This document shows positions 1,162-44,797 of a stretch of 44,797 bases of DNA, piece by piece (the first letter of the stretch is position 1; every line of letters begins with the position of its first letter). The DNA is from a virus. Lineage: Duplodnaviria; Heunggongvirae; Uroviricota; Caudoviricetes. The notes below the pieces were generated by a model, which saw only the letters and a program-made list of their open reading frames with translations, made no database searches and had not been told where the DNA came from. The translations under genes and the position numbers were made by a program. Location: IMG/VR virus record IMGVR_UViG_2568526230_000010; one strand, written 5' to 3'.

Positions 1162-1260
1162 AATCATTCCCACTCAATTATTTACGGACACCATAACTAA
1201 TTGAGTGATAACATTTTTCCAAAGATGAATTTTTCTCGTACCGTTTTATATACCGTCACC
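1162..1260. other. Candidate att core and P' arm (start of attL/attP identity)
   Basis: First bases shared by the left junction and the inter-copy junction; contains 10-bp inverted repeat CACTCAATTA (1171-1180) / TAATTGAGTG (1198-1207) and the 11-mer ATACCGTCACC (1250-1260) that recurs in the opposite arm at 40954-40964. Confidence 0.35.
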
Positions 1261-1288
1261 GGAAATCAGTACCATGAAAAATGCCATG

Positions 1289-1771
1289 CTATCTGGTCAG
1301 TGTGTCGTACTGTTTTTCGCAGACTCTTCCGGCTTCGGCTGCCCGGTCAGCATACTCTGCCAGTTGTCTGTTTCTCTCGAGAGATTTGCTGAGCACGTCG
1401 GCAAGCAAAACTCCGGTGTCTGCGGCTGACGTCCCAGCGCCGACAATGGCGTTATACTGCCTGAGCTGCTCACGGATGGCAAAGAGTTGTTGCTGCAACC
1501 TGCCAGCGCGAGCGGCAGCATCAAGAGCATCGCTGCGCGCCTGCTCGATCCTCTGCTGCGCTTCACGTTCATTGGTCGCTTTCTCCTGTTCGTAGTGCTG
1601 ACGAACTTTTTCTTCTTCGGCTTTGCGGTCTTCTTTCGCCTGCGCATACCCGGCGTCGTACTGACGACTGCCGTGTGCATTCCAGGCTACAACTCCTGAT
1701 ATGACCAGAACAGCAAGCATCGCCATGATAACCAACTGTTTCCAGTATGCTTTTACGAATGCCCAGATCAT
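1289..1771 (-). CDS. Rz-like inner-membrane spanin
   Basis: 160 aa; N-terminal TM helix then Q/E/R/A-rich coiled coil; last gene of the lysis cassette, overlaps the endolysin stop by 4 nt. Confidence 0.75.
1297..1530 (-). CDS. Rz1-like outer-membrane lipoprotein spanin, embedded in Rz in the +1 frame
   Basis: Internal start gives [12 protein letters not shown]… with lipobox LAGC and a Pro/Ser-rich 77-aa product lying entirely inside the Rz ORF, as in lambda Rz/Rz1. Confidence 0.6.
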   Translation of the reverse strand: MLLMLPLALAGCSNNSLPSVSSSGSITPLSALGRQPQTPEFCLPTCSANLSRETDNWQSMLTGQPKPEESAKNSTTH

Positions 1772-2397
1772 ACCGCTAGCGCCTTACTGGCAGTGATGTA
1801 CCGAGCGCGCCGGTCGTCGATGCCGTTCCTGCCACCATTGATAATCAGAGTTACACGTGCAATATCGCCGGTATACTTCATGCAGCCTTTGCTGGAGAAA
1901 AACCACGCCGCGCTACGAGCTGCATATTCGTCCTGCGCCAGCAGTTCAGGATTCTCCAGCAGGTCCACTTTCAGGCCGTTTCCGCAGTCACGATAGTTAT
2001 TCAAACCGGTAATCTGGATAAGTCCGCGCCCACGGTAATTCCATCCATCGCCTGGGGCATTGTTACCCATGCGTTTGCTGTACACCAGATTTGCGATCGC
2101 GCGCTGGCGCTCGAGTTGCAATGGTGGTTCACCAGCACGGCGACCCAGTGCGTTGGCCTGTCCCTGAGTGAGACGTCCTGCCCGAACAAAGTTAGCCAGT
2201 CCTGTGACACTGTAGTTGAAATTCTCCTGCAACCTGGTGAAGCCACCAGACTCATGCCCGACTTGAGCAATAAACATTGCCTGATCTTCTGCTTTGCTGA
2301 TACCAAACTCTTTCATTGCAGAAGTTATATGCGAGAACCAGCGTGCGGCCAGCGCCTCGCTAATACCAGCAGCTCGCTGGAATTGTTTAATCTCCAT
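1768..2397 (-). CDS. Endolysin, glycoside hydrolase family 19 (chitinase-like lysozyme)
   Basis: 209 aa; motifs [12 protein letters not shown] and [12 protein letters not shown] typical of GH19 phage endolysins; sits between holin-like genes and Rz. Confidence 0.8.
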
Positions 2398-2695
2398 GTT
2401 TAGACCTCGTTATCTTGAAAATCTGAACGACGTTACCGCGAGTTTTAAGAACCGCAGCAAGCATGACAGCGTTGATAATGACCTCAGATAAATCCACAGC
2501 CATTGGCGTGCGTAACCAGATTGCATAGGCGACTCGAACAGGAATACTGGCCGCAGCAACAATCAGGAAATAAGCAAGCCATCCTCCCCACCTTCGATGT
2601 TGAGAGCCGTTACGCCGGAATGTGACAACGCGAATTGCTATGCCAGTGCAAATAACTGCATTGGTGATAAGCAAAAAAAACTCATGCGTTACCAT
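2387..2695 (-). CDS. Holin-like small membrane protein
   Basis: 102 aa with hydrophobic TM segments and a charged C-terminus; overlaps the endolysin start. Confidence 0.5.
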
Positions 2696-3086
2696 CGTCT
2701 TTTCTCCCCGGAATTAACTCGCGTGGATTATCGGAACGGTGATAGAGCCATATACCAATACGCACAGCGACAATTGCTGACACAAATGCGCCTGCAGAGA
2801 AAACAATCCCTTTTTCAAAAGAGTCCTGCGTGATGGTAGGGATCAGGCTGGCTATGCCGATAAGAATTGATGCTGCTGGTTTGTAAAAGAGAAGGCCGCA
2901 AAGAAAGCTGAGCATCGACAGGAGCACCCGGCGACGGATGGGGTACTCTACTGCAGAGGTAACAAAAATTACCGCCCCAGCCAAAGCCCCTAAAGCAACC
3001 TCCGGAGGGACACCTGCAATAACCGCAGCAAGAGAACTAACACTAAGCCACTGATTTGAAGTTTCATTGGTTAGTTGGAATGACAT
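2682..3086 (-). CDS. Holin/antiholin-like multi-TM membrane protein
   Basis: 134 aa, three to four hydrophobic helices; first gene of the lysis cassette, downstream of the tailspike. Confidence 0.5.
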   Translation of the reverse strand: MSFQLTNETSNQWLSVSSLAAVIAGVPPEVALGALAGAVIFVTSAVEYPIRRRVLLSMLSFLCGLLFYKPAASILIGIASLIPTITQDSFEKGIVFSAGAFVSAIVAVRIGIWLYHRSDNPRELIPGRKDDGNA

Positions 3087-3158
3087 AACGAAACCCGTTT
3101 ATTTGCAAACACCCTGCTTCAGGAAAAGTATACCGCGCAACAACACACCATTTACGGT

Positions 3159-5621
3159 TCAATTCCCTGTTAATTGCAAAACTTGCTCTTCCAGCTTTTT
3201 AACCCTGCGTCTCATCATCGCAGATTCCAGAATCAGAGCCTCTTCATAACGGATACCGTAACATTCACCAGCCTCGACGGCTTCGCGTACCAGAACCTTT
3301 GTCTGTATAAGTGGGTAAACTCCTGCAGAATGCTCTTCTTCCGTCACATCCCTGTATTCTGCCGGGGTCTCATTCCACTTGTCATAACAGATAAATGCCA
3401 GTCGTGACACATCTATGCCTTCATTCTGAAATACACTGATAACATGCTGCGCAACTGCACCAAAGTGCCATCTTGCTCCGTCTTTACCTTTCACTTCGAT
3501 CCTGTCAAGGTACTGGTATGAAACCCATTCCACTCTTTCCCATGCGTCCAGTATTTTCTCATCAATAACCTCTGGAGCAGTCTTGAAACGCGCATCGGAC
3601 AGCACCGTAAACGCTGACTGGGTAAATCCCCCCGACCATGCACGACCAGCCAACCCAAGAGAATAAGTATTCGTTGTCGATGGTGTCATGGCTGAATCAG
3701 AAAACTGTATATATTCTGAATTTCCAGTAGATATTCGAATATTTCCATTTATTAGCGACATAGTGCCTTTAGTATTATCACTATTGAATAATTTCAATTG
3801 CGAACTTATACCGCCTCCCACAGCCAGAGATACATCGCCTTCAGCAAGCATTCTGAATTTATCTGCAGAAACAAGCGTCTGGTTAGCAAGGTTAAAATAT
3901 TTAACCCACCATTCAAAACGCCCTGACATAGTCCCAACGTACTGACCAAGCGCAGGGACGTGAACAACATTGCTATTTGTAGTGCCGTCTATACTGGAAA
4001 TACCAGTCACCGCTGATGCAGAACTCAGAATATTATTTCTGTCACCAGGATGTTTAATTTCAACAAAGTTCCTGATACACCCTTCCTCGAAGGTAACCAC
4101 GCCGGAAGAACTATACATGGGGAATATTGACGCATAATTACTGCGTGCAGCATCTAAGAAACGAATGGTTGTAGATGTCTGCAGATCTCCTGATTCATTT
4201 TTCCCATCACACCCAGTCATTAGAATATTACTGGCAATATTATTATTTCCCTGAACGGTGACGCCGTGCGCCTGCTTTGCGTCCGATTCAGAGTAATCAA
4301 CCAGCACATCCGAAATCAGGTTACCAGTCCCCTTGCCAACAACTACTGCGGCGTATTTTGGGTTGTTAGCCATTACACTGCTAATGATATTATTCGTTGG
4401 GGCAGTTTCCGTCTCAGTTCCATTGTAAACAACGTGCTGACACTCTTCACCAATAACATTGCTGACAATGTTATATTTTGCTGCTGTTTTAAGTTCCACT
4501 GCACCAAACTGAGGATAATTTCTGGCTATCACACCATCAATTAGCGTATTTTGCGATGAATCAAAAAGCACACAACCTGCTTTTTTATTATTTGCGAACC
4601 CTAAATACTCTCCTCTTATATCTCTAACAATGTAACCTGACGGAATACCATTATTCGGATAAGCGATCAAGCTAAATCCTGTTCCTCGCGTATTTGTAAA
4701 TCTGATATTTTTAACCGATACATCATGGCCACCTGAAAATGACACCTGGTGTCCCTGCACACTATCATCTGATTTATTTCCCATAATTGTTAGCGTACTA
4801 AGCATGCCACCATCGGGCATGTTAAAAACCAGATGATTACCATCTCTGTCATACTGTTTTATCGTTCCCCCACCTGTTCCGTACAAGCCACAACGTGAAA
4901 GAGAAACTAAAGATGTATTGAATACCCCTTCCGGAACAAAAACACTGCTAAACGAATGTAATGATTTTGTAAAAGCATCCTTGTTATCATTTAAGATTCC
5001 ATTTTGAGCTCCAAAATCCTTAATGCTGACACCATCACGCATCTTATCCTGGAACGTTCTGTATACCGCTCCAGAACCATACTGAATAAACCAACCAAAA
5101 CCACCAATAACTCCGGCGATTGCAGCATCGACATAATTACGCATTGAGCGATTATTTACAGCGTCCTGCTCAAGTGATGGATCGGCAAGGTTAGATATTC
5201 TGTTTTGCTTTGCATCGTAATATTTTGCAAGCAAAGATGGTTTCATCAATGCACGTCTGAACAACCCAAAACATCGCTGGATCAGCATCGTCAGGTAGTC
5301 AAATGCATCCTCATGAACTTCGGGGAAAAATTTTCCCTGATTGCGAAGATCAGTCTCCTGCACCACATCAAGCACACGCTCTATCGTGATTCGCCAGCCA
5401 GCAGCAAGCGGCGACGGAAGAACCACTGCACCGCCACTATAAGTTCCCGCCCCTGTTACCGTATAACCAGCATCCAGCACTAGTTTTGTAACGTTACCGT
5501 TAAGGTCAGACACCTGAACAACCAGGTCGGATTTTTTGAAAATACGGAAGGTATACGGAAATGATGTCGTAACGCCGTTACCTGTGTATTCGTTGTGGTC
5601 AACTTCGGTTGAGACCGTCAT
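3159..5621 (-). CDS. Tailspike with beta-helix and C-terminal intramolecular chaperone (S74-type autoproteolytic) domain
   Basis: 820 aa; conserved podovirus particle-binding N-terminus; long Gly/Asn/Ser/Thr-rich repetitive middle; C-terminal 150 aa ending in a coiled coil resembles endosialidase-type chaperone domains. Confidence 0.8.
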   Translation of the reverse strand: MTVSTEVDHNEYTGNGVTTSFPYTFRIFKKSDLVVQVSDLNGNVTKLVLDAGYTVTGAGTYSGGAVVLPSPLAAGWRITIERVLDVVQETDLRNQGKFFPEVHEDAFDYLTMLIQRCFGLFRRALMKPSLLAKYYDAKQNRISNLADPSLEQDAVNNRSMRNYVDAAIAGVIGGFGWFIQYGSGAVYRTFQDKMRDGVSIKDFGAQNGILNDNKDAFTKSLHSFSSVFVPEGVFNTSLVSLSRCGLYGTGGGTIKQYDRDGNHLVFNMPDGGMLSTLTIMGNKSDDSVQGHQVSFSGGHDVSVKNIRFTNTRGTGFSLIAYPNNGIPSGYIVRDIRGEYLGFANNKKAGCVLFDSSQNTLIDGVIARNYPQFGAVELKTAAKYNIVSNVIGEECQHVVYNGTETETAPTNNIISSVMANNPKYAAVVVGKGTGNLISDVLVDYSESDAKQAHGVTVQGNNNIASNILMTGCDGKNESGDLQTSTTIRFLDAARSNYASIFPMYSSSGVVTFEEGCIRNFVEIKHPGDRNNILSSASAVTGISSIDGTTNSNVVHVPALGQYVGTMSGRFEWWVKYFNLANQTLVSADKFRMLAEGDVSLAVGGGISSQLKLFNSDNTKGTMSLINGNIRISTGNSEYIQFSDSAMTPSTTNTYSLGLAGRAWSGGFTQSAFTVLSDARFKTAPEVIDEKILDAWERVEWVSYQYLDRIEVKGKDGARWHFGAVAQHVISVFQNEGIDVSRLAFICYDKWNETPAEYRDVTEEEHSAGVYPLIQTKVLVREAVEAGECYGIRYEEALILESAMMRRRVKKLEEQVLQLTGN

Positions 5622-5725
5622 GTTAAATCTCCAGATAGTCGCAGCACCCGTTGCGCCGCATATCTGGTTATTCTATTACCTGAAAAACCATATATGGATA
5701 AAAAGACTGTAAATACGAATAGATA

Positions 5726-5740
5726 TTACCTTTCAGGTAA
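5726..5740. promoter_or_regulatory. Operator-like palindrome TTACCTTTCAGGTAA (perfect 6-3-6)
   Basis: Perfect inverted repeat in the divergent region between the tailspike and the accessory island; one of 13 family members. Confidence 0.5.
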
Positions 5741-5777
5741 TTTGCAAAACGTGCTGGATAGCAAACAAATTATTTGC

Positions 5778-5797
5778 TACTGTATAAATATACAGTT
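5778..5797. promoter_or_regulatory. LexA (SOS) box TACTGTATAAATATACAGTT
   Basis: CTGT-N8-ACAG with an AT-rich spacer, matching the enterobacterial SOS-box consensus at 19 of 20 positions; 21 nt upstream of the ATG at 5818. Confidence 0.7.
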
Positions 5798-5817
5798 ATT
5801 GCATGGAGAAGATTAAG

Positions 5818-6075
5818 ATGCAGCAGTATCACTATCCACTGGAAGACGGATTTACCGAAAGGATTCACACGCCGGGAGGCGTCAGGTCACTGGTGGAGGG
5901 ATCGCACTTGATGAAATTACTCCGGGATCTCGATAAGGATGGATTTAATGTCGATGGCCCACTTGCCGAACTGACTGCACTGATTAACTACGTCACCAGC
6001 TCACAGATGTCTATGCAGGATCTGCAAACACATCTCGACTATTGTGCCGAACAATTACGAAAACAAACCAGATAA
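5818..6075 (+). CDS. Small protein homologous to the C-terminal domain of the downstream antirepressor-like protein
   Basis: 85 aa; RBS GGAG 9 nt upstream; IHTPGGVRSLVEGSHLMKLL…MQDLQTHLDY aligns with IHSPSGVLGLTENSLLMNLL…LRDIQTHAEY in the 6889..7608 product. Confidence 0.6.
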   Translation: MQQYHYPLEDGFTERIHTPGGVRSLVEGSHLMKLLRDLDKDGFNVDGPLAELTALINYVTSSQMSMQDLQTHLDYCAEQLRKQTR

Positions 6076-6106
6076 GGTTTGAAATTACCAAATGGAGTGC
6101 TTATAT

Positions 6107-6121
6107 TTACCTTTGCGGTAA
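6107..6121. promoter_or_regulatory. Operator-like palindrome TTACCTTTGCGGTAA inside a hairpin
   Basis: Family member with one mismatch, lying in the loop of the inverted repeat GGAGTGC (6094-6100) / GCACTCC (6131-6137) just after the small-gene stop. Confidence 0.4.
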
Positions 6122-6147
6122 ATTTACATCGCACTCCTCTTGTGCCA

Positions 6148-6240
6148 TAGTAATCGGGCACTGGCAAAATCCAGTGCCGGGATTGGCGTCCCGGATTACT
6201 AGTAGGCGCATACCACGCCAGACGTGGTTTTTTTATGCGT
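6148..6240 (+). ncRNA. Candidate structured small RNA: tRNA-like three-way junction plus intrinsic terminator
   Basis: 8-bp closing stem TAGTAATC/GATTACTA encloses hairpins GGCACTGG-CAAAAT-CCAGTGCC and GGGA-TTGGCG-TCCC, followed by terminator ACCACG-CCAGA-CGTGGT plus T7; no credible ORF on either strand. Confidence 0.4.
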
Positions 6241-6389
6241 ATAGCACAGTCATATCCGAATTATGGTGGGCTGGGCAGGGGCACCGAAAGGTGCGCCGGT
6301 ACCTACTAGGCCGGTACGCCAACCTTGTCCAGTTCACCACCAGCAATTGGCGTTGCGGTGGTGGGTAACTTACTAGTAGAGGTATCGCT

Positions 6390-6896
6390 ATGCCAGGCCA
6401 AAAAATCTCAAACGACGATCTGTATTGGTTAATTTCTAATTCTCCACTCCTTCTTATGCTAAGGCAAGAAAGTGCACCACTGGTCAGTGAATTGATTAGC
6501 TGTAGAAATAGAATGTGGGATGAAGGGGCAGATTTAGATACCAATTTGTTTGATCATCTTATGCAACTAGCAGTCGATAACAAGGCAAAACTACGCTCTG
6601 AATACAACGCTTATCCAGAAATAGCAAAATACCTTAACGCTGAAATACTTGGTGGACCAGGTCAACCAGACCTAAAAACAAAAGATGGTTACCCTGTTGA
6701 GGTGAAGGTAGATACTTTTTCTCCTTCAGCATTAAAACAATTATTAAGGTATATGGATGCTTCTGGCGCAGATTTTGGTTTTGCTTGTGCAAAAACTCTT
6801 TCTGTAAAACTCCCTGAAAACATAAAGTTCATCCAGTTAGATTATAAAGATAATTGCTATTTCGTCGTGAAAGATGGAGGCAATGAAAATGCGTAA
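6390..6896 (+). CDS. Hypothetical protein, AT-rich accessory gene coupled to the antirepressor-like gene
   Basis: 168 aa; RBS GAGGT 5 nt upstream; lower GC than flanking phage genes; its end overlaps the start of the next gene. Confidence 0.55.
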   Translation: MPGQKISNDDLYWLISNSPLLLMLRQESAPLVSELISCRNRMWDEGADLDTNLFDHLMQLAVDNKAKLRSEYNAYPEIAKYLNAEILGGPGQPDLKTKDGYPVEVKVDTFSPSALKQLLRYMDASGADFGFACAKTLSVKLPENIKFIQLDYKDNCYFVVKDGGNENA

Positions 6897-7608
6897 TATA
6901 GCTATTGATAAGTTGCCGATAACAACTCATTGCAACATCCCTGTAATGACTACAGAAATGCTTGCTGATTTGTATGACACAGAACCCAAACTGATTCGTC
7001 AAAACTATCAACGAAATGCAGATCGATTCATTGAGGGAAAACATTGTTTCAAGCTGATAGGCGAAGAATTACGAGCATTTAAGAACGAGTCCTCTCAAAG
7101 AGGTTTGCTTAATATTGCACCAAAAGTAAGTCATCTTTTCTTATGGACCGCTCGCGGTGCAGCACGACATGCGAAAATTCTTGAGACTGAAAAAGCGTGG
7201 GAGGTCTTCGAAAAACTGGAAGATTGCTACTTCGACAGAAAACCCGCAAATGTCAGTGGAGATGTTCGTCTCTCAGGTGGAGCTGATTTATCAAAGGCCA
7301 CTCAGGTAATTGAAAAATTCATGCCCGCCATTATGGAGGCGATCAAGCTGGAAGACAAAAAAGAATACAGTGCCCCACTGAAGCCCGGCTACCGCAGCCT
7401 GATTCATTCTCCGTCTGGTGTTCTCGGCCTGACGGAGAACTCACTGCTGATGAATCTGCTGAACCAGTTACAGGAAGACGGGCACGACGTATCGGGCGCG
7501 GCGGCGGAGCTGACCACCATGTTCTGCTACATCGTCGGTGTGAGCAAATGCCTGCGTGATATCCAGACCCACGCGGAGTACATCAACGACAAGGCAGGGT
7601 TCTTCTGA
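6889..7608 (+). CDS. Antirepressor-like protein with N-terminal ORF6N-type DNA-binding domain
   Basis: N-terminus fits the ORF6N pattern (VMTTEMLADLYDTEPKLIRQNYQRNADRFIEGKHCFKLIGEEL); C-terminal domain is a paralog of the 5818..6075 product. Start placed at the ATG 8 nt after GGAGG; the ORF track starts at 6874. Confidence 0.65.
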   Translation: MRNIAIDKLPITTHCNIPVMTTEMLADLYDTEPKLIRQNYQRNADRFIEGKHCFKLIGEELRAFKNESSQRGLLNIAPKVSHLFLWTARGAARHAKILETEKAWEVFEKLEDCYFDRKPANVSGDVRLSGGADLSKATQVIEKFMPAIMEAIKLEDKKEYSAPLKPGYRSLIHSPSGVLGLTENSLLMNLLNQLQEDGHDVSGAAAELTTMFCYIVGVSKCLRDIQTHAEYINDKAGFF

Positions 7609-7680
7609 CGGGCGGCGGCACATGGATGTGCCTTTAAATAATTCTGTACAGATTGCAGACTGTGGGTGAATAGCGTACTA

Positions 7681-7695
7681 TTACCTCAAGGGTAA
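7681..7695. promoter_or_regulatory. Operator-like palindrome TTACCTCAAGGGTAA
   Basis: Family member with one mismatch, between the antirepressor-like stop and the toxin module; followed by hairpin ACGGATT/AATCCGT. Confidence 0.4.
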
Positions 7696-7755
7696 ACGGA
7701 TTGGTTTCATTTTTATTAATCCGTGTAATGAACTTATGAGATATGAGGTAATGTC

Positions 7756-7935
7756 ATGCGAAACGAAAAATTGCAGATGCGTAGAGCGCAAGCTGCCGCA
7801 AGACGTTCTTTCAATGGAAGCGTAGAGTACGTAAAAGTTACTATGACAAAAGATCACGCAAGTCGCGTATCCCGCGCTTTCTTTGATTCTCGTAACAATA
7901 AGGAAAATTATGAGTTCGTCTGCGTCGCAGAATGA
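7756..7935 (+). CDS. Small basic protein, candidate antitoxin or regulator partner of the YafO-like toxin
   Basis: 59 aa, below the ORF-track cutoff; RBS GAGGT 6 nt upstream; Arg/Lys-rich; its 3' end overlaps the toxin start by 26 nt. No Phd/YefM/YafN-like signature recognised. Confidence 0.35.
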   Translation: MRNEKLQMRRAQAAARRSFNGSVEYVKVTMTKDHASRVSRAFFDSRNNKENYEFVCVAE

Positions 7936-8455
7936 TAAAAATCAAATTGTCAGATATAAGGGTCGAGTGTTGCATACGCAAAATTTCTCGGCCCTTTGTG
8001 CATCTGATCTTGAGCTGAAGAAAGTATCTGATGCCTTTACCCAGTATTGGAAAACGGGATACCATCCATCTCTTGGTAAAGATGCTGCATTTGCTCGTCC
8101 GACAGAAATGCTTAAACTAAATGTCAGGCATACTCATGTCGATAACCAAGACTATATTCCAGAAGATAGTGATAAAAAACACACTGGTAAAAAATCATCT
8201 TGGGATGCATGGAAAAATATAGCGTCTGTACAAGTAAAATGCATACCAACAAGTGATTGCTTTTTAGTTTATTCGGTAAATCACAATCGTGATGCGCTGG
8301 TTATGTTTTTTGTTGACGCAGATGCTCACAACATAACTGAGCAAGAAGAGTTTAAAGAGGAAGCAATCACTATCAGTTATCAATTCTTTGAGAAAACAAA
8401 AACAGAACCAATGCCTTTAGAAGAAGATCTTTTTTCTGATAAATGGAAGGAATAG
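7910..8455 (+). CDS. YafO-family toxin homolog (ribosome-dependent mRNA interferase family) with C-terminal extension
   Basis: Aligns by eye with E. coli YafO as recalled: FTQYWKTGYHPSLGKDAAFARP vs FISYKRDGVLPDIFGRDALYD, LNVRHTHV vs ERVAHIHL, CFLVYSV…ALVMFFV vs AHLVYCQ…AWLLIAI. Start at the ATG with RBS AAGGA; AT-rich; followed by a terminator. Confidence 0.65.
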   Translation: MSSSASQNDKNQIVRYKGRVLHTQNFSALCASDLELKKVSDAFTQYWKTGYHPSLGKDAAFARPTEMLKLNVRHTHVDNQDYIPEDSDKKHTGKKSSWDAWKNIASVQVKCIPTSDCFLVYSVNHNRDALVMFFVDADAHNITEQEEFKEEAITISYQFFEKTKTEPMPLEEDLFSDKWKE

Positions 8456-8475
8456 CCCGCAGCGCGGGCTTTTTT
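8455..8475 (+). terminator. Rho-independent terminator
   Basis: GCCCGC-AGC-GCGGGC followed by T6, at the stop of the toxin gene. Confidence 0.7.
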
Positions 8476-8547
8476 GTGGACGAAACACAAGTCAGTGCTA
8501 CACTCATTGACGCCACATTGAGGTGGCTTATAGATGGAAATTTCACA

Positions 8548-8709
8548 ATGAAAAAAGCATTTGCTGCACTGTTCGTTTTGTTGTCTCTGGTAGCTTCAAC
8601 TCAGGCCTTTGCCGGTCGTTGTCAGCACGACAGCGACACTGCTGCTGACGGCTCCCGCTGCGGTGGGCGTTCTGCGGATTCCCGCCCGGGCGGCGGTGGC
8701 ATTCGTTAA
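8548..8709 (+). CDS. Small exported peptide (signal peptide plus about 31-aa Cys/Gly/Arg-rich mature part)
   Basis: MKKAFAALFVLLSLVASTQAFA signal peptide; possible promoter TTGACG-N16-TATAGA upstream; GC-rich, so real coding is uncertain. Confidence 0.35.
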   Translation: MKKAFAALFVLLSLVASTQAFAGRCQHDSDTAADGSRCGGRSADSRPGGGGIR

Positions 8710-8731
8710 AAACAAGGCCGCGAAAGCGGCC
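8706..8731 (-). terminator. Terminator closing the minus-strand late operon
   Basis: GGCCGC-GAAA-GCGGCC (GNRA loop) followed on the minus strand by TTGTTTTT, 15 nt after the stop of the 8746..9306 gene. Confidence 0.6.
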
Positions 8732-8745
8732 TGTGACATGTCACA

Positions 8746-9306
8746 CTACATTGATATATGATTCATAAAGTAGCTTAAAGATTTACTTCCCAGAAAAGAA
8801 ATTTCTTTTCCTGGATATGTCGCAATAATTGAGCATGACTTATCCCCGTTAGAGGTAACAAATCCTGAATAACCTACTTGTTCTTTACCATTTTGTTGCT
8901 TGGCTAAAAAGTAGAGGTAGCTTATCTTTTTGCCCTCTGGGTAAAACTCTGCCAAACCAGTATCGGTGATTGAATATTTTATTCTCCCGCCTTGAGTAAC
9001 GTTTTCCATCTCAAGTTTAGCTATGTCTTTTCTGTTGTATTCAGCATTGATTTTCCTTTCGAAATCAATGTTGTTTTCAAATGAGTAGGAAGCAACAGTC
9101 TGAATAGATGGGAACACGTTTATCTGGATGCCTCCACAGTCGGCACAGGTATAAAGGTATGAATCAGATGGAATCCCCATAAAAGAAAACTGAGTTACCT
9201 TAAATTTATCGCTATCTCCAAAGTATTGAAGTTCGCATTTAACATTTTGCCCTGCAAAAGAAAATGCAGACATCAATATTGAAACAAAAAATATAATTGC
9301 CTTCAT
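8746..9306 (-). CDS. Exported protein of unknown function, AT-rich moron at the end of the late operon
   Basis: 186 aa; signal peptide MKAIIFFVSILMSAFSFA; markedly lower GC than the upstream ejection-protein gene; start 3 nt after the preceding stop. Confidence 0.6.
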   Translation of the reverse strand: MKAIIFFVSILMSAFSFAGQNVKCELQYFGDSDKFKVTQFSFMGIPSDSYLYTCADCGGIQINVFPSIQTVASYSFENNIDFERKINAEYNRKDIAKLEMENVTQGGRIKYSITDTGLAEFYPEGKKISYLYFLAKQQNGKEQVGYSGFVTSNGDKSCSIIATYPGKEISFLGSKSLSYFMNHISM

Positions 9307-9308
9307 TA

Positions 9309-25474: not shown

Positions 25475-25551
25475 GTGGCATTAGCTCAGTTGGACAGAGC
25501 AACCGCCTTCTAAGCGGTTGGTCGCAGGTTCGAATCCTGCATGCCACGCCA
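25475..25551 (+). tRNA. tRNA-Arg (anticodon UCU), phage-encoded
   Basis: Cloverleaf folded by hand: acceptor GTGGCAT/ATGCCAC, D-stem GCTC/GAGC, anticodon stem ACCGC/GCGGT with loop CTTCTAA, T-arm GCAGG-TTCGAAT-CCTGC, discriminator G and encoded CCA. Acceptor stem differs from host argU as recalled. Confidence 0.85.
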
Positions 25552-27672: not shown

Positions 27673-28265
27673 TGATTACCATCCTGACGTTCTTTGAGTC
27701 GCTTCCTGGCTGCTGCTATGCGATCAGCAATTGTCACATTCACATTAACATCCAGGCGTTCTTTGAACGCATTGACGTCGACGTGCTTACCAATCAGTTC
27801 GAGGTTCTTCACCTTGTCAGGCCATTTAATTTTTTTGAGGATTGTCTCTATCGAATCCTCGTTCATGTTCATGATGGTCGATGACAGATCAAAGCCGCTA
27901 AGCGTAGTGCGCCAGATTTTCGGCCACTCGCGGATTGGCTTAAGGCTCCCATCGTCGTTGAGGATGTCGATCACGTCCATCTGGTCGATCTCCACCAGGC
28001 GCATGAGAACGTAATCAGCACTGACGCGCATTCGTTTGTTGCGCTCCTCCATCAACTCGGCAATCCGTTTTTGAATGCGTTCATCGCGCATCATGACACT
28101 GGCTTTAACTGCCGCTGTATTTGGGGAGAATCCTGCGTTAATCGCTGCCTGAGTCTGGTTTTCAGGCGTTTTGATGTATGACTGGCAATAAGCCTCCTGC
28201 ATTGCTGTTAGTGGCTTAAATTGCGTTGATTTGCGTTTATAGGCTTTAGGTTCAGCAGGCATCAT
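27669..28265 (-). CDS. Terminase small subunit
   Basis: Terminase_2-like N-terminus (LTAMQEAYCQSYIKTPENQTQAAINAGFS). The ORF track extends to a TTG at 28343 through a repeat-containing leader; the start is placed at the first ATG pair. Confidence 0.7.
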   Translation of the reverse strand: MMPAEPKAYKRKSTQFKPLTAMQEAYCQSYIKTPENQTQAAINAGFSPNTAAVKASVMMRDERIQKRIAELMEERNKRMRVSADYVLMRLVEIDQMDVIDILNDDGSLKPIREWPKIWRTTLSGFDLSSTIMNMNEDSIETILKKIKWPDKVKNLELIGKHVDVNAFKERLDVNVNVTIADRIAAARKRLKERQDGNQ

Positions 28266-28383
28266 AACCACCGTGGTAATAGTTACCGTTGTGGTAATAG
28301 TATCATGCAAAATAAAGCCGCCATAGTTGGCGGCAGTATTCAAACCCCATCAAATTCATCATGCATAATCTACTCGTGACATG

Positions 28384-36105: not shown

Positions 36106-36107
36106 TA

Positions 36108-38103: not shown

Positions 38104-38152
38104 CCACCACCGCGGCGCCACGCGCGCCGCACTGCAACCAAGAGAGGTATTT

Positions 38153-38401: not shown

Positions 38402-38510
38402 GTGCGCTGCTAAGGCACTGGATCAAATGGTCAGGATGGTACTTATTCCTGGCCTCTGTTTCAGCATGGCTTTATCTGCTGGCATTAATTTTCAGAGAGG
38501 GTTGGATTAA

Positions 38511-38783: not shown

Positions 38784-38801
38784 GATGTTGCGGGGTGGTT
38801 T

Positions 38802-39643: not shown

Positions 39644-39646
39644 ACG

Positions 39647-40897
39647 TTATTCCCCCGCCATCCACTTCTCAAACTTCGACGGGGAGAACGGAATCAGATC
39701 CGTATGCTCCCCGTCAATCCATGAATCAATCATATCGGCCCACTGCTGCAACATGTAGGCGCGCTGTCTGGCGTATTCCGCTTTGTTATATACGGCGCGC
39801 ACACCTTTCTGCTCATGTGCCAGAGCCTTTTCAATCCAGTCTGAAGGATAACCAGCCTCATGCAACAACGTACTGGCTGTACGGCGCATATCATGTACAG
39901 TGAAGTCCTGAATATGCTCACCATCTTCATTTATTATTTTCACCGTTCTGTCGATCAGAGAGTTCAGCGCGGCATTAGATAATGGCTTCCGGAAATTGTA
40001 ACGACCAGGAACCAGATATTCACTTCCACCAGCGCACATCTGCAACCCGACCAATATATCCTGTGCCTGTTTAGGCAGGTAAATAACGTGCGCCCGGCTT
40101 CCCTTCATGCGGTCTGGAGGAATTGTCCATGTCCATTTTTTAAAATCTATTTCATCCCACGTTGCATTGGTGAATTCGCCCTTACGAACCATAGTGATAA
40201 GCACCAGTTTTAAAGCCATTTTCATAGTGCCCATAGCACCAATGGCATCCAGCGTGCGGAAGAACAGGCCAATTTCTTCTGGTGTCAGTGTTCGCTCTCG
40301 TGGTTTAAATATGGCGATAGACGAAGGTTTAATGTCAGCCGCAGGATTAAACAAACCATGACCACGGTCATTGGCGTGACGGTATACGCTACTGATGATC
40401 TCCCTGGCCTGCACTGCTGTTGCCCGGCCACCGCGTTCGACAATCCGGTCACACAAATCACGAACCATCGATGTGGTAATTTCAGCCATCATTTTATTGC
40501 CAAGAACCGGAAGTATGTCACGGTCGATCACCGCCTGTTTCATTGCGCGGGTACTGTCAGCCAGGATGACGTGTTTCATATAACTGTCGGTATGTACCGC
40601 AAACGTCTCGGCACCACGAATCTTTTTGATACCGTCACGTTTAGCCGCAGCCGGTGACTGGCCTGCTTTAAGCAGCTTCTTTGCAGCAATCAGTTCTTCT
40701 CGCGCTTCTGCCAGGCTGATACCGTCACGCCCATACTGCCCGATTACCAGTGTTTCGCGGCGACCGTTGATACGGTAGTCATAGCGAAACGAGACCGTGC
40801 CTGACGTAAGCACAGCTACATACAGCCCGTCACGATCGGAGACCTTGTACAGTTTGTCCTGCGGCTTGAGGTTTTTTAATTTTGTATCGGTAAGCAC
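39647..40897 (-). CDS. int: Tyrosine integrase (P4-type with N-terminal arm-binding domain)
   Basis: 416 aa; N-terminal DUF4102-like region (LYKVSDRDGLYVAVLTSGTVSFRYDYR) and C-terminal catalytic region with HDMRRT and a conserved Tyr; last gene before the inter-copy junction. Confidence 0.85.
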   Translation of the reverse strand: MLTDTKLKNLKPQDKLYKVSDRDGLYVAVLTSGTVSFRYDYRINGRRETLVIGQYGRDGISLAEAREELIAAKKLLKAGQSPAAAKRDGIKKIRGAETFAVHTDSYMKHVILADSTRAMKQAVIDRDILPVLGNKMMAEITTSMVRDLCDRIVERGGRATAVQAREIISSVYRHANDRGHGLFNPAADIKPSSIAIFKPRERTLTPEEIGLFFRTLDAIGAMGTMKMALKLVLITMVRKGEFTNATWDEIDFKKWTWTIPPDRMKGSRAHVIYLPKQAQDILVGLQMCAGGSEYLVPGRYNFRKPLSNAALNSLIDRTVKIINEDGEHIQDFTVHDMRRTASTLLHEAGYPSDWIEKALAHEQKGVRAVYNKAEYARQRAYMLQQWADMIDSWIDGEHTDLIPFSPSKFEKWMAGE

Positions 40898-41087
40898 AAT
40901 TCACCCGTATAGAAACCATTTTCATGACGGTATGAGAGTATACCTTTAAGGTAATACCGTCACCTGTACCGACGAAAAATATGGTGTAGAGTGAATAGAA
41001 ATGAATACATAAAAACAAAAACCCTCTGTAAAAACAGAGGGTTAAATTAGTATCTGAATAGGAATGAGTTGCTATGAGTTAGCTGTT
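40898..41087. other. attP-type P arm between the integrase and the second prophage copy
   Basis: Unique 190-bp segment carrying a terminator hairpin, an ATACCT-N3-AGGTAA site (40940-40954) and the ATACCGTCACC repeat (40954-40964); identity with the left junction resumes at 41088. Confidence 0.5.
41011..41043 (-). terminator. Terminator hairpin nearly identical to the host-flank terminator
   Basis: Stem AACCCTCTGT/ACAGAGGGTT identical to 1114-1137; loop AAAA instead of AGTA; U-tract only on the minus strand. Confidence 0.55.
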
Positions 41088-41214
41088 AATCATTCCCACT
41101 CAATTATTTACGGACACCATAACTAATTGAGTGATAACATTTTTCCAAAGATGAATTTTTCTCGTACCGTTTTATATACCGTCACCGGAAATCAGTACCA
41201 TGAAAAATGCCATG

Positions 41215-41697
41215 CTATCTGGTCAGTGTGTCGTACTGTTTTTCGCAGACTCTTCCGGCTTCGGCTGCCCGGTCAGCATACTCTGCCAGTTGTCTGTTTC
41301 TCTCGAGAGATTTGCTGAGCACGTCGGCAAGCAAAACTCCGGTGTCTGCGGCTGACGTCCCAGCGCCGACAATGGCGTTATACTGCCTGAGCTGCTCACG
41401 GATGGCAAAGAGTTGTTGCTGCAACCTGCCAGCGCGAGCGGCAGCATCAAGAGCATCGCTGCGCGCCTGCTCGATCCTCTGCTGCGCTTCACGTTCATTG
41501 GTCGCTTTCTCCTGTTCGTAGTGCTGACGAACTTTTTCTTCTTCGGCTTTGCGGTCTTCTTTCGCCTGCGCATACCCGGCGTCGTACTGACGACTGCCGT
41601 GTGCATTCCAGGCTACAACTCCTGATATGACCAGAACAGCAAGCATCGCCATGATAACCAACTGTTTCCAGTATGCTTTTACGAATGCCCAGATCAT
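41215..41697 (-). CDS. Rz-like spanin (copy 2)
   Basis: Protein identical to the 1289..1771 product. Confidence 0.75.
41223..41456 (-). CDS. Embedded Rz1-like lipoprotein spanin (copy 2)
   Basis: Identical to the 1297..1530 ORF. Confidence 0.55.
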   Translation of the reverse strand: MLLMLPLALAGCSNNSLPSVSSSGSITPLSALGRQPQTPEFCLPTCSANLSRETDNWQSMLTGQPKPEESAKNSTTH

Positions 41698-42323
41698 ACC
41701 GCTAGCGCCTTACTGGCAGTGATGTACCGAGCGCGCCGGTCGTCGATGCCGTTCCTGCCACCATTGATAATCAGAGTTACACGTGCAATATCGCCGGTAT
41801 ACTTCATGCAGCCTTTGCTGGAGAAAAACCACGCCGCGCTACGAGCTGCATATTCGTCCTGCGCCAGCAGTTCAGGATTCTCCAGCAGGTCCACTTTCAG
41901 GCCGTTTCCGCAGTCACGATAGTTATTCAAACCGGTAATCTGGATAAGTCCGCGCCCACGGTAATTCCATCCATCGCCTGGGGCATTGTTACCCATGCGT
42001 TTGCTGTACACCAGATTTGCGATCGCGCGCTGGCGCTCGAGTTGCAATGGTGGTTCACCAGCACGGCGACCCAGTGCGTTGGCCTGTCCCTGAGTGAGAC
42101 GTCCTGCCCGAACAAAGTTAGCCAGTCCTGTGACACTGTAGTTGAAATTCTCCTGCAACCTGGTGAAGCCACCAGACTCATGCCCGACTTGAGCAATAAA
42201 CATTGCCTGATCTTCTGCTTTGCTGATACCAAACTCTTTCATTGCAGAAGTTATATGCGAGAACCAGCGTGCGGCCAGCGCCTCGCTAATACCAGCAGCT
42301 CGCTGGAATTGTTTAATCTCCAT
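41694..42323 (-). CDS. GH19 endolysin (copy 2)
   Basis: Protein identical to the 1768..2397 product. Confidence 0.8.
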
Positions 42324-42621
42324 GTTTAGACCTCGTTATCTTGAAAATCTGAACGACGTTACCGCGAGTTTTAAGAACCGCAGCAAGCATGACAGCGTTG
42401 ATAATGACCTCAGATAAATCCACAGCCATTGGCGTGCGTAACCAGATTGCATAGGCGACTCGAACAGGAATACTGGCCGCAGCAACAATCAGGAAATAAG
42501 CAAGCCATCCTCCCCACCTTCGATGTTGAGAGCCGTTACGCCGGAATGTGACAACGCGAATTGCTATGCCAGTGCAAATAACTGCATTGGTGATAAGCAA
42601 AAAAAACTCATGCGTTACCAT
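42313..42621 (-). CDS. Holin-like membrane protein (copy 2)
   Basis: Identical to 2387..2695. Confidence 0.5.
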
Positions 42622-43012
42622 CGTCTTTTCTCCCCGGAATTAACTCGCGTGGATTATCGGAACGGTGATAGAGCCATATACCAATACGCACAGCGACAAT
42701 TGCTGACACAAATGCGCCTGCAGAGAAAACAATCCCTTTTTCAAAAGAGTCCTGCGTGATGGTAGGGATCAGGCTGGCTATGCCGATAAGAATTGATGCT
42801 GCTGGTTTGTAAAAGAGAAGGCCGCAAAGAAAGCTGAGCATCGACAGGAGCACCCGGCGACGGATGGGGTACTCTACTGCAGAGGTAACAAAAATTACCG
42901 CCCCAGCCAAAGCCCCTAAAGCAACCTCCGGAGGGACACCTGCAATAACCGCAGCAAGAGAACTAACACTAAGCCACTGATTTGAAGTTTCATTGGTTAG
43001 TTGGAATGACAT
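42608..43012 (-). CDS. Holin/antiholin-like membrane protein (copy 2)
   Basis: Identical to 2682..3086. Confidence 0.5.
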   Translation of the reverse strand: MSFQLTNETSNQWLSVSSLAAVIAGVPPEVALGALAGAVIFVTSAVEYPIRRRVLLSMLSFLCGLLFYKPAASILIGIASLIPTITQDSFEKGIVFSAGAFVSAIVAVRIGIWLYHRSDNPRELIPGRKDDGNA

Positions 43013-43084
43013 AACGAAACCCGTTTATTTGCAAACACCCTGCTTCAGGAAAAGTATACCGCGCAACAACACACCATTTACGGT

Positions 43085-44797
43085 TCAATTCCCTGTTAAT
43101 TGCAAAACTTGCTCTTCCAGCTTTTTAACCCTGCGTCTCATCATCGCAGATTCCAGAATCAGAGCCTCTTCATAACGGATACCGTAACATTCACCAGCCT
43201 CGACGGCTTCGCGTACCAGAACCTTTGTCTGTATAAGTGGGTAAACTCCTGCAGAATGCTCTTCTTCCGTCACATCCCTGTATTCTGCCGGGGTCTCATT
43301 CCACTTGTCATAACAGATAAATGCCAGTCGTGACACATCTATGCCTTCATTCTGAAATACACTGATAACATGCTGCGCAACTGCACCAAAGTGCCATCTT
43401 GCTCCGTCTTTACCTTTCACTTCGATCCTGTCAAGGTACTGGTATGAAACCCATTCCACTCTTTCCCATGCGTCCAGTATTTTCTCATCAATAACCTCTG
43501 GAGCAGTCTTGAAACGCGCATCGGACAGCACCGTAAACGCTGACTGGGTAAATCCCCCCGACCATGCACGACCAGCCAACCCAAGAGAATAAGTATTCGT
43601 TGTCGATGGTGTCATGGCTGAATCAGAAAACTGTATATATTCTGAATTTCCAGTAGATATTCGAATATTTCCATTTATTAGCGACATAGTGCCTTTAGTA
43701 TTATCACTATTGAATAATTTCAATTGCGAACTTATACCGCCTCCCACAGCCAGAGATACATCGCCTTCAGCAAGCATTCTGAATTTATCTGCAGAAACAA
43801 GCGTCTGGTTAGCAAGGTTAAAATATTTAACCCACCATTCAAAACGCCCTGACATAGTCCCAACGTACTGACCAAGCGCAGGGACGTGAACAACATTGCT
43901 ATTTGTAGTGCCGTCTATACTGGAAATACCAGTCACCGCTGATGCAGAACTCAGAATATTATTTCTGTCACCAGGATGTTTAATTTCAACAAAGTTCCTG
44001 ATACACCCTTCCTCGAAGGTAACCACGCCGGAAGAACTATACATGGGGAATATTGACGCATAATTACTGCGTGCAGCATCTAAGAAACGAATGGTTGTAG
44101 ATGTCTGCAGATCTCCTGATTCATTTTTCCCATCACACCCAGTCATTAGAATATTACTGGCAATATTATTATTTCCCTGAACGGTGACGCCGTGCGCCTG
44201 CTTTGCGTCCGATTCAGAGTAATCAACCAGCACATCCGAAATCAGGTTACCAGTCCCCTTGCCAACAACTACTGCGGCGTATTTTGGGTTGTTAGCCATT
44301 ACACTGCTAATGATATTATTCGTTGGGGCAGTTTCCGTCTCAGTTCCATTGTAAACAACGTGCTGACACTCTTCACCAATAACATTGCTGACAATGTTAT
44401 ATTTTGCTGCTGTTTTAAGTTCCACTGCACCAAACTGAGGATAATTTCTGGCTATCACACCATCAATTAGCGTATTTTGCGATGAATCAAAAAGCACACA
44501 ACCTGCTTTTTTATTATTTGCGAACCCTAAATACTCTCCTCTTATATCTCTAACAATGTAACCTGACGGAATACCATTATTCGGATAAGCGATCAAGCTA
44601 AATCCTGTTCCTCGCGTATTTGTAAATCTGATATTTTTAACCGATACATCATGGCCACCTGAAAATGACACCTGGTGTCCCTGCACACTATCATCTGATT
44701 TATTTCCCATAATTGTTAGCGTACTAAGCATGCCACCATCGGGCATGTTAAAAACCAGATGATTACCATCTCTGTCATACTGTTTTATCGTTCCCCC
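43085..44797 (-). CDS. Tailspike (copy 2), partial: N-terminal part lies beyond the window end
   Basis: Identical to the C-terminal 570 codons of 3159..5621; the reading frame stays open to the last base of the window. Confidence 0.75.
   Translation of the reverse strand, partial: GGTIKQYDRDGNHLVFNMPDGGMLSTLTIMGNKSDDSVQGHQVSFSGGHDVSVKNIRFTNTRGTGFSLIAYPNNGIPSGYIVRDIRGEYLGFANNKKAGCVLFDSSQNTLIDGVIARNYPQFGAVELKTAAKYNIVSNVIGEECQHVVYNGTETETAPTNNIISSVMANNPKYAAVVVGKGTGNLISDVLVDYSESDAKQAHGVTVQGNNNIASNILMTGCDGKNESGDLQTSTTIRFLDAARSNYASIFPMYSSSGVVTFEEGCIRNFVEIKHPGDRNNILSSASAVTGISSIDGTTNSNVVHVPALGQYVGTMSGRFEWWVKYFNLANQTLVSADKFRMLAEGDVSLAVGGGISSQLKLFNSDNTKGTMSLINGNIRISTGNSEYIQFSDSAMTPSTTNTYSLGLAGRAWSGGFTQSAFTVLSDARFKTAPEVIDEKILDAWERVEWVSYQYLDRIEVKGKDGARWHFGAVAQHVISVFQNEGIDVSRLAFICYDKWNETPAEYRDVTEEEHSAGVYPLIQTKVLVREAVEAGECYGIRYEEALILESAMMRRRVKKLEEQVLQLTGN

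What the first reader, a model, noticed from the sequence alone, without database searches (positions are those of the whole stretch)
1162..44797. Tandem prophage: full unit plus start of an identical second copy with an attP-type internal junction
Sequence from 1162 onward repeats exactly from 41088 (period 39,926 bp). The left junction has host sequence to its left, while the internal junction has the integrase and a unique 190-bp arm to its left, as expected for attL-prophage-attP-prophage. Tandem lysogens are rarely resolved in assemblies, and gene dosage of the island and toxin would be doubled.
Basis: seen in the sequence. Interest (0 to 1): 0.5.

Follow-up and report, generated by a model that had tools for sequence, protein, structure and literature searches.

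The report
Known prophage repeated at scaffold gap
The repeat is real: a well-known type of E. coli virus sits at its published insertion site next to guaA, followed by a head-to-tail joint and the first 3.7 kb of the same virus again. The sequence comes from a draft assembly and stops at a gap, so a true double insertion cannot be told apart from an assembler running into free circular virus DNA, and both are ordinary.

Summary
Window 1162-4871 equals 41088-44797 (3,710 bp, 0 mismatches, period 39,926).

- **What it is:** an epsilon15/phiV10-like (Uetakevirus) prophage between yfgI and guaA of E. coli.
- **Junctions:** the left junction is attL. The internal junction is a reconstituted attP. 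Both carry the published 17-bp core AATCATTCCCACTCAAT (the guaA 3' end), which lies 190 bp from the integrase start, as published for phiV10, epsilon15 and ZX5.
- **Source:** I traced the window to draft scaffold KI929682.1 (GCA_000522145.1). It ends exactly at a 7,507-N gap. After the gap come 236 bp of the integrase-side arm, then the attR core and guaA. A full second copy would need a 35,980-bp gap.
- **Closest relative:** window 1-41104 is 100% identical to closed genome Ecol_AZ162, a single lysogen.
- **Relatives support both readings:** about 7 of 569 closed E. coli genomes carrying this phage family have the attP junction in the chromosome. The three I checked are complete tandems, and one of them has an IS2 in only one copy. 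Two other closed genomes hold the phage both integrated and as a separate 41-kb circle.

A real tandem lysogen (about 0.5) and read-through into excised circular or concatemeric DNA (about 0.4) cannot be separated without the reads. Both are textbook phenomena, so interest is low.

The parts
1..1071 (+). Host flank: yfgH (1-516) and yfgI (532-1071).
   Evidence: 100% match to the E. coli chromosome with PGAP names yfgH and yfgI. Same order as in K-12.
1115..1138 (.). Host hairpin between yfgI and guaA (AACCCTCTGT-agta-ACAGAGGGTT), part of the B arm of attB/attL.
   Evidence: Read directly in the sequence. Folds at -17.8 to -19.5 kcal/mol. Present in the unoccupied K-12 attB.
1162..1178 (.). 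attL core (O): AATCATTCCCACTCAAT.
   Evidence: The same 17 bp occur in K-12 attB, in window attL and attP, and in attR of single lysogens. It is the reverse complement of the published core attgagtgggaatgatt (PMC9782041).
1162..41087 (.). Prophage copy 1, one complete unit of 39,926 bp. It is an epsilon15/phiV10-like podovirus (Uetakevirus).
   Evidence: About 97% identity over 52-55% of a 23.8-kb query to phiv142-3, HEMP4, TL-2011b and phiV10, and 77% to epsilon15. Identical with 0 mismatches to the prophage of Ecol_AZ162.
1289..3086 (-). Lysis cassette next to the P' arm: DUF2514 Rz-like (1289-1771), GH19 endolysin (1768-2397) and two holins (2387-2695, 2682-3086).
   Evidence: Pfam DUF2514 at E=4e-43. 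PGAP names in the identical Ecol_AZ162 region. Pfam tags.
3159..5621 (-). Tailspike, 820 aa. It has a conserved N-terminal domain, a beta-helix and a C-terminal Peptidase_S74 chaperone domain.
   Evidence: Pfam and PHROG hits.
5803..9306 (.). Accessory ('moron') region.
   Evidence: ORF6N at E=1e-18. YafO_toxin scores 26.1 bits against a cut-off of 25. PHROG anti-repressor families. PGAP names.
25475..25551 (+). Phage tRNA-Arg (TCT).
   Evidence: ARAGORN. Annotated in all related prophages examined.
26197..28343 (-). Large terminase (26197-27672) and small terminase (27669-28343).
   Evidence: PGAP names in the identical Ecol_AZ162 prophage. ORFs.
39647..40897 (-). Tyrosine integrase, 416 aa.
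   Evidence: Pfam Arm-DNA-bind_3, Phage_int_M and Phage_integrase. Next to guaA in all 10 places shown for contigs that carry this exact integrase.
40898..41087 (.). P arm of attP, 190 bp. It holds a terminator-like hairpin at 41020-41043 (minus strand) and candidate arm-type repeats ATACCGTCA at 40925-40933 (inverted) and 40954-40962.
   Evidence: The same arm precedes guaA in attR of single lysogens and follows the gap in the source scaffold.
41088..41104 (.). Core of the internal attP-type junction (P-O-P').
   Evidence: The megablast match of single-lysogen attR ends at this base (query position 605 of 40500-41700).
41088..44797 (.). Re-entry into the same phage sequence: P' arm, lysis cassette and the C-terminal 570 codons of the tailspike. 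It is an exact copy of 1162-4871 and ends at a scaffold gap.
   Evidence: identity; the window end is the last base before 7,507 N in KI929682.1.

Best explanation
The window shows an epsilon15/phiV10-type temperate podovirus integrated by its tyrosine integrase at the 3' end of guaA. The attB core is AATCATTCCCACTCAAT, which covers the last four guaA codons, the stop codon and two further bases.

The layout is yfgI - attL (1162-1178) - one complete 39,926-bp genome - P arm - attP core (41088-41104) - the first 3,710 bp of the same genome. My preferred reading, by a narrow margin, is that the sequenced isolate really carried two head-to-tail copies (attL-prophage-attP-prophage-attR). The short-read scaffolder could assemble only the start of the second copy before the 40-kb repeat forced a gap.

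Shown: the three junction types, the core, and the identity of the repeat. Also shown: complete tandems occur in relatives.

Inferred: how the tandem arose. The candidates are Int-mediated recombination of a second circular genome with attL or attR of the resident copy, integration of a circular dimer at lysogenisation, or unequal attL x attR exchange between sister chromosomes. All give the same sequence. Expected consequences are also inferred: doubled dosage of repressor and accessory genes, easy loss of one copy by homologous recombination, and possibly headful packaging of a complete genome without excision.
For: - Junction anatomy and core match the published att site (PMC9782041).
- After the gap, the source scaffold holds the P arm, the core and guaA. 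All three junctions of a tandem (attL, attP, attR) are therefore present in one scaffold in the right order and orientation.
- Seven of 569 closed E. coli genomes with this phage family carry the int-attP-Rz junction in the chromosome, with 3 places per record.
- Three were checked end to end and are complete tandems between yfgI and guaA, each with a different tailspike module and a different host, so they are independent events. Z1323CEC0007 has two 40,055-bp copies with 0 differences. FDAARGOS_1301 has an IS2 in one copy only, which an assembly artefact cannot produce. The third is 97-3250.
- The assembler broke the full-coverage path into guaA and followed the attP path instead. That suggests attP molecules were not a rare minority (inference).
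Against: - The second copy is not in the record. Only 3,710 bp are present, and the declared gap is 7,507 N against the 35,980 bp required.
- The closest closed genome, Ecol_AZ162, is identical over all 41,104 bp up to the core and is a single lysogen. So are 8 other closed genomes identical over the stretches compared (1-1400, 41088-41700, 4500-5700).
- Of 25 long contigs encoding the identical Rz protein, only this draft scaffold has int next to Rz.
- Free circular copies of a related phage coexist with the integrated copy at assembly-level abundance in strains HL15 and SF10.
- ZX5 lysogens release 1e7 PFU/ml spontaneously.
- attP reads from spontaneous excision are seen in ordinary resequencing data (PMC8682789).
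- No read depth is available.
Confidence: 0.5

Rival explanations
1. Assembly read-through. The isolate is a single lysogen. Its DNA preparation also contained excised circular or concatemeric phage DNA from spontaneous induction. Those molecules supply true attP-spanning reads. At the branch after the P arm (to guaA or to the P' arm), the scaffolder followed the attP branch, re-entered the prophage for about one library length (3.7 kb), stopped, and placed the true attR contig after an arbitrary gap.
For: - The window ends exactly at a scaffold gap, with attR directly after it. The contig after the gap starts at window coordinate 40852, so under this model it simply overlaps the first contig.
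- The declared gap is far too small for a second copy.
- Ecol_AZ162 is 100% identical over 41,104 bp and is a single lysogen.
- HL15 and SF10 hold a related phage both integrated and as a separate 41,027-bp circular replicon.
- One metagenome (3300045988) yields both an attL contig and an attP contig with these exact junction sequences.
- Spontaneous release of 1e7 PFU/ml is reported for ZX5.
- attP split reads occur in routine WGS data.
- The end of the repeat at 44797 is not a boundary of any other genomic repeat, so it looks like a reach limit of the assembler.
Against: - A minor attP population would normally be removed by error correction or out-competed by the full-coverage attR path, so this needs a substantial episomal fraction (inference).
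- Under this model the true relation of the two contigs is an overlap of about -3.9 kb, so the positive 7.5-kb gap is not explained either.
- In the closed-genome census, chromosomal tandems (7 genomes) outnumber cases where the free circle was abundant enough to be assembled (2 near-identical strains).
Confidence: 0.4
2. A full prophage followed by a truncated second copy. If the gap size is taken literally, the second unit is only about 11.5 kb (3,710 + 7,507 + 253 bp). That would be a deletion derivative of a former tandem that keeps the lysis end and the int end.
For: It is the only model that takes the 7,507-N gap at face value. Tandem copies do decay independently in relatives: IS2 in one copy in FDAARGOS_1301.
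Against: - The 3,710 bp are identical to copy 1, so the event would be very recent and yet already deleted.
- No such remnant exists in any of the 9 closest closed genomes, each of which has only two junction matches (attL and attR).
- Gap sizes in short-read scaffolds next to repeats are unreliable (general knowledge).
Confidence: 0.05

Closest known systems
phiV10, epsilon15 and vB_EcoP_ZX5 (genus Uetakevirus) integration at the 3' end of guaA
   Same: Same 17-bp core (attgagtgggaatgatt), same 190-bp distance from the core to the integrase start, same target (guaA 3' end next to yfgI), same integrase architecture, and same gene order and size of about 39-40 kb.
   Different: The accessory region and tailspike differ. 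There is no O-acetyltransferase as in phiV10. This prophage has a YafO-like ORF, an ORF6N anti-repressor and a tailspike with a Peptidase_S74 domain. Nucleotide coverage by named phages is only 52-55% for E. coli relatives such as phiV10 and 34% for epsilon15.
Complete tandem prophages of the same family in closed E. coli genomes (Z1323CEC0007, FDAARGOS_1301, 97-3250)
   Same: Same locus, same attL/attP/attR cores, and the same order yfgI-attL-prophage-attP-prophage-attR-guaA.
   Different: In those genomes the second copy is fully sequenced. Here only 3.7 kb is, followed by a gap. Their junction regions are about 96-97% identical to the window, not the same phage variant.
Classical tandem polylysogens formed by Campbell integration (lambda dilysogens; tandem prophages at one att site in STEC)
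   Same: An attP is regenerated between two head-to-tail copies flanked by attL and attR. [quoted passage not shown] The lambda case is from my own knowledge.
   Different: Lambda uses cos packaging. This phage family is thought to package by headfuls (my knowledge, not tested here). The STEC cases in PMC8112680 mostly involve different phages or integration inside another prophage.
Terminal-overlap ('wrap') artefacts when circular or concatemeric DNA is assembled, e.g. pHL15EC-2, a phage genome deposited as a 41-kb circular plasmid
   Same: An attP junction is assembled from non-integrated phage DNA present in the same preparation as the lysogen chromosome.
   Different: In HL15 and SF10 the circle was assembled as its own replicon. 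Here the junction is joined to a chromosomal contig.

Membership tests
Uetakevirus (epsilon15/phiV10-like) prophage at guaA | 17-bp att core attgagtgggaatgatt shared by attP and the guaA 3' end | tested here: met
   Exact core at 1162-1178 and 41088-41104. The same core is in K-12 attB, where it encodes ...IEWE* of guaA. Published core in PMC9782041.
Uetakevirus (epsilon15/phiV10-like) prophage at guaA | Core lies 190 bp upstream of the integrase start; tyrosine integrase with an arm-binding domain | tested here: met
   int is 39647-40897 (minus strand) and the core starts at 41088, so the spacer is 190 bp. Pfam Arm-DNA-bind_3, Phage_int_M and Phage_integrase.
Uetakevirus (epsilon15/phiV10-like) prophage at guaA | Genome of about 39-40 kb that is nucleotide-similar and collinear with phiV10/epsilon15 | tested here: met
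   Unit length is 39,926 bp. Identity is 96-97% over 52-55% of a 23.8-kb query to phiV10, phiv142-3, HEMP4 and TL-2011b, and 77% to epsilon15.
Tandem (Campbell-type) dilysogen | attL (B-O-P') at the host-proximal end and a regenerated attP (P-O-P') between the units | tested here: met
   Junction sequences.
Tandem (Campbell-type) dilysogen | A second complete unit followed by attR | tested here: inconclusive
   Only 3,710 bp of the second unit are present. The source scaffold then has 7,507 N followed by 236 bp of P-side sequence, the attR core and guaA. A full unit needs 35,980 bp.
Tandem (Campbell-type) dilysogen | Two-fold read depth over the prophage and attL:attP:attR of 1:1:1 without attB | not testable with these tools
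   No reads are available.
Assembly wrap of circular/concatemeric phage DNA | The duplicated segment is an exact copy of the unit's start and sits at a contig end or gap | tested here: met
   0 mismatches in 3,710 bp. The window end is the gap edge.
Assembly wrap of circular/concatemeric phage DNA | Free phage DNA coexists with the integrated copy in sequenced cultures | tested here: inconclusive
   Shown for relatives (HL15 and SF10; metagenome 3300045988) and in the literature, but not for this isolate.

The most novel reading that the evidence does not exclude
The isolate carries a genuine, recently formed tandem. Tandem arrays of Uetakevirus prophages at guaA (about 1% of lysogens) would then be a recurrent functional state rather than an accident. 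Because the genome is packaged by headfuls, a head-to-tail pair would let the phage package a complete genome directly from the chromosome without excision, followed by lateral transduction of the yfgI-side host DNA. It would also double the dosage of immunity and accessory genes.
Probability: 0.08. Interest if true: 0.35.

Novelty: already known. Interest (0 to 1): 0.13.

Why it matters
It matters little biologically. The phage family, its att site, tandem lysogeny and assembly wraps are all established.

The practical lesson concerns curation. An attP junction inside a chromosomal contig of a draft assembly is not proof of a tandem prophage, and such records inflate apparent prophage copy number.

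A small by-product is a census for this phage family. About 7 of 569 closed E. coli lysogen genomes have a chromosomal attP junction. At least one of them is proven real by a copy-specific IS2. Two closed genomes hold the phage both integrated and as a free circle.

Tried and rejected
- **Source in public collections by exact junction patterns.**
  - IMG/VR gave one attP contig and three attL contigs, none of them the window.
  - JGI metagenomes gave one 39-kb attP contig.
  - GTDB representatives gave nothing.
- **Integrase look-up.** It is too widespread (4,815 blocks), and all 10 places shown were ordinary guaA-int attR.
- **What worked.** Looking up the truncated tailspike product that a gene caller would emit at the contig end identified KI929682.1.
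- **Literature search** for the assembly or scaffold accession found nothing, so the strain name and sequencing method are unconfirmed. The protein accession ETX94719.1 and the KI scaffold accession suggest a 2014 short-read scaffold assembly, but that is my inference.
- **Repeat boundary at 44797.** I tested whether the contig end coincides with another genomic repeat, such as a second tailspike N-terminal domain. The closest closed genomes have only one copy, so this is rejected.
- **Gap arithmetic.** 7,507 N fits neither model (+35,980 bp for a tandem, about -3,946 bp for a wrap). It remains unexplained.
- **Gally prophage of LF82** is not a guaA or Uetakevirus phage, so it is not used as evidence.
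- **Terminator scan.** It missed the host hairpin at 1115-1138. I think this is because the A/T-extended stem leaves too few T in the tail. The hairpin is supported by direct reading and folding instead.
Full report
**Observation.**
Comparing the window with itself at an offset of 39,926 bp gives one uninterrupted identical run, 1162-4871 = 41088-44797 (3,710 bp, no mismatch). To the left of 1162 nothing longer than 6 bp matches.

**What the sequence is.**
- Window 1-1161 is E. coli chromosome: yfgH, yfgI and the intergenic hairpin. It is found in 5,422 of 5,426 complete genomes.
- From 1162 onward the sequence is a temperate podovirus of the epsilon15/phiV10 group (genus Uetakevirus). It is 96-97% identical over 52-55% of a 23.8-kb query to phiv142-3, HEMP4, TL-2011b and phiV10, and 77% identical to epsilon15.
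- Gene content is typical. It comprises a lysis cassette, tailspike, anti-repressor and accessory region, internal virion proteins, capsid, portal, tRNA-Arg and terminase. It also has a lambda-P/DnaT-type replication module, repressor, RecT and nuclease, a methyltransferase and a tyrosine integrase.

**The junctions.**
Aligning the junctions from the window, the unoccupied K-12 site, single lysogens and a tandem lysogen shows a common 17-bp core, AATCATTCCCACTCAAT.

| Site | Sequence around the core |
|---|---|
| K-12 attB | ...GGGTCA / core / GGTAGC... |
| Window, 1162 | ...GGGTCA / core / TATTTACGG... (B-O-P', attL) |
| Window, 41088 | ...AGCTGTT / core / TATTTACGG... (P-O-P', attP) |
| Single lysogens | ...AGCTGTT / core / GGTAGC or AGTTGC... 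(P-O-B', attR) |

- In K-12 the core is the reverse complement of the last guaA codons (IEWE, stop).
- The core is exactly the one published for phiV10, epsilon15 and vB_EcoP_ZX5. [quoted passage not shown]

**Where the window comes from.**
The window ends in the middle of the tailspike gene. I therefore looked up the 570-residue fragment that a gene caller would produce at a contig end.
- It is on record in exactly one contig: scaffold KI929682.1 (5,108,942 bp) of NCBI assembly GCA_000522145.1, protein ETX94719.1.
- In that scaffold the last base of the window is followed by 7,507 N.
- After the gap come 46 bp of the integrase 5' end, the 190-bp P arm, the core and guaA, which together form attR.
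- The record therefore reads yfgI-attL-prophage-attP-3.7 kb-gap-attR-guaA.
- A complete second copy would need a gap of 35,980 bp. If there is only one copy, the contig after the gap overlaps the first contig by about 3.9 kb. The declared 7,507 fits neither model and remains unexplained.

**Closest relatives.**
- Window 1-41104, from yfgH to the last base of the second core, is 100.000% identical to the closed chromosome of strain Ecol_AZ162. In that strain the core is followed by guaA, so it is a single lysogen.
- Eight further closed genomes are identical over every stretch compared (1-1400, 41088-41700, 4500-5700), and each has just two junction matches, attL and attR.
- Among 25 long contigs encoding the identical Rz-like protein, only the source scaffold has the integrase next to it.
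- The point where the repeat stops (4871/44797) is not the edge of any other repeat in those genomes.

**Are tandem lysogens of this family real?**
Yes. A 1.2-kb query across the internal junction finds it uninterrupted in 5 complete E. coli chromosomes, and in 2 more with a divergent arm. That is 7 out of 569 genomes carrying this phage family, each with three places per record. I reconstructed three of them end to end.

| Strain | Structure |
|---|---|
| Z1323CEC0007 | attL, attP and attR spaced 40,055 bp apart; the two copies are identical |
| FDAARGOS_1301 | Copies of 41,973 and 40,638 bp that differ by an IS2 insertion in one copy, plus 2 mismatches and 2 indels |
| 97-3250 | Full tandem; the yfgI-proximal copy carries a run of 'frameshifted' genes, which suggests poor consensus there |

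- The IS2 difference in FDAARGOS_1301 cannot be an assembly artefact.
- The three phages have different tailspike and accessory modules and sit in unrelated hosts, so these are independent events.

**Is the rival plausible?**
Also yes.
- In strains HL15 and SF10 a phage of the same family is present as an integrated prophage, with attL and attR halves at 100% identity on the chromosome. It is also present as a separate 41,027-bp circular replicon deposited as plasmid pHL15EC-2, which contains the attP junction.
- One metagenome in IMG/VR yields both an attL contig and an attP contig with exactly the window's junction sequences.
- ZX5 lysogens spontaneously release 1e7 PFU/ml.
- attP-supporting split reads are seen in routine resequencing of lysogens (PMC8682789).
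- A short-read scaffolder meeting the branch 'P arm to guaA or to P' arm' could produce the observed layout from either a tandem or a mixture of integrated and free forms.

**Weighing.**
- For a real tandem:
  - All three junction types lie in the right order in one scaffold.
  - The assembler abandoned the full-coverage attR path, which argues that attP molecules were not rare.
  - In closed genomes, tandems outnumber assembled free circles (7 to 2).
- For an artefact:
  - The repeat sits at a gap edge.
  - The gap is too small.
  - The nearest closed genome is a single lysogen.
  - No other assembly of this phage variant shows the junction.
- My estimates are about 0.5 for a true tandem, about 0.4 for read-through into free phage DNA, and about 0.05 for a truncated second copy.
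- Only the reads can decide: depth ratio, junction counts and long reads.

**Mechanism.**
Shown here are the att sites and the integrase domains. The rest is inferred from established knowledge of tyrosine-integrase phages.
- The Arm-DNA-bind/Phage_integrase protein recombines attP with attB inside the 17-bp core and regenerates the guaA 3' end.
- A tandem arises in one of three ways: a second circular genome recombines with attL or attR, a circular dimer integrates, or sister chromosomes exchange attL x attR. All regenerate attP between the copies.
- Consequences would be doubled dosage of repressor and accessory genes, instability through homologous recombination between the copies, and possibly packaging of a full genome without excision.

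**Comparison and novelty.**
The element is a member of the phiV10/epsilon15 group by every feature tested: core, spacing, target, integrase and genome similarity. The arrangement is either a classical Campbell-type tandem lysogen or a classical assembly wrap. Neither is new, and the sequence is already in a public record. I rate it 'already known' with low interest.

Noticed in passing
window 41020-41043 versus 1115-1138: The phage P arm carries a hairpin (AACCCTCTGT-aaaa-ACAGAGGGTT, terminator-like on the minus strand with a T-run). Its 10-bp stem is identical to that of the host hairpin between yfgI and guaA. After integration it lies about 45 nt downstream of the guaA stop, so the phage appears to bring a replacement terminator for guaA. 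In the circular or tandem form it separates the lysis operon from int. The B arm and P arm align from this hairpin up to the core.
   Followed up: partly
window 40925-40933 (inverted), 40954-40962, 41176-41184: Three copies of ATACCGTCA flank the core, two in the P arm and one in the P' arm. They are candidate arm-type binding sites for the integrase's Arm-DNA-bind_3 domain. There is also an inverted repeat, CACTCAATTATTTACGG / CCATAACTAATTGAGTG, at 41097-41133 that overlaps the core.
   Followed up: no
source scaffold KI929682.1, locus L020 2494-10000 (directly right of window 44797): The 7,507-N gap fits neither a full second copy (35,980 bp) nor a single copy (an overlap of about -3.9 kb). 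Its origin is unexplained.
   Followed up: partly
window 5803-6075 and 6874-7608: The 90-aa ORF at 5803-6075 matches the same PHROG (phrog_450) as the C-terminal part of the ORF6N anti-repressor at 6874-7608. It looks like a free-standing duplicate of the anti-repressor C-terminal domain.
   Followed up: no
window 7883-8455: The 'toxin' of the accessory region is only a marginal YafO_toxin match (26.1 bits against a cut-off of 25, E=9e-6). No partner antitoxin was recognised. The overlapping ORF at 8443-8709 matches a PHROG annotated as a membrane-associated moron.
   Followed up: partly
NZ_CP079771.1 (pHL15EC-2) and NZ_CP079768.1, locus L028: Two RefSeq 'plasmids' of 41,027 bp are complete circular genomes of a phage of this family. 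The same strains also carry it integrated at guaA, so the plasmid label is probably wrong, or the phage is maintained or induced at high copy.
   Followed up: partly
NZ_CP027599.1 (strain 97-3250), locus L030 20127-29565: In this tandem lysogen the yfgI-proximal copy has about ten consecutive genes flagged 'frameshifted', while the other copy is clean. This looks like poor consensus quality in one copy of a long-read assembly rather than real decay.
   Followed up: no
NZ_CP070111.1 (FDAARGOS_1301), locus L026 33959-35187: An IS2 is inserted in only one of the two tandem prophage copies, in the accessory region. This is proof that the tandem is chromosomal and old enough to have diverged.
   Followed up: yes
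IMG/VR contig IMGVR_UViG_2571042668_000007 (locus L017): This 40,897-bp provirus record starts at the same base as the window (attL at 1150-1192). Its length equals the window coordinate of the integrase start (40897). It is the single-lysogen version of the same region cut at gene borders, which suggests the window was delimited the same way and ran on only because of the attP junction.
   Followed up: partly
window 25475-25551: A phage-borne tRNA-Arg (anticodon TCT) is conserved at the same position in all related prophages examined.
   Followed up: no
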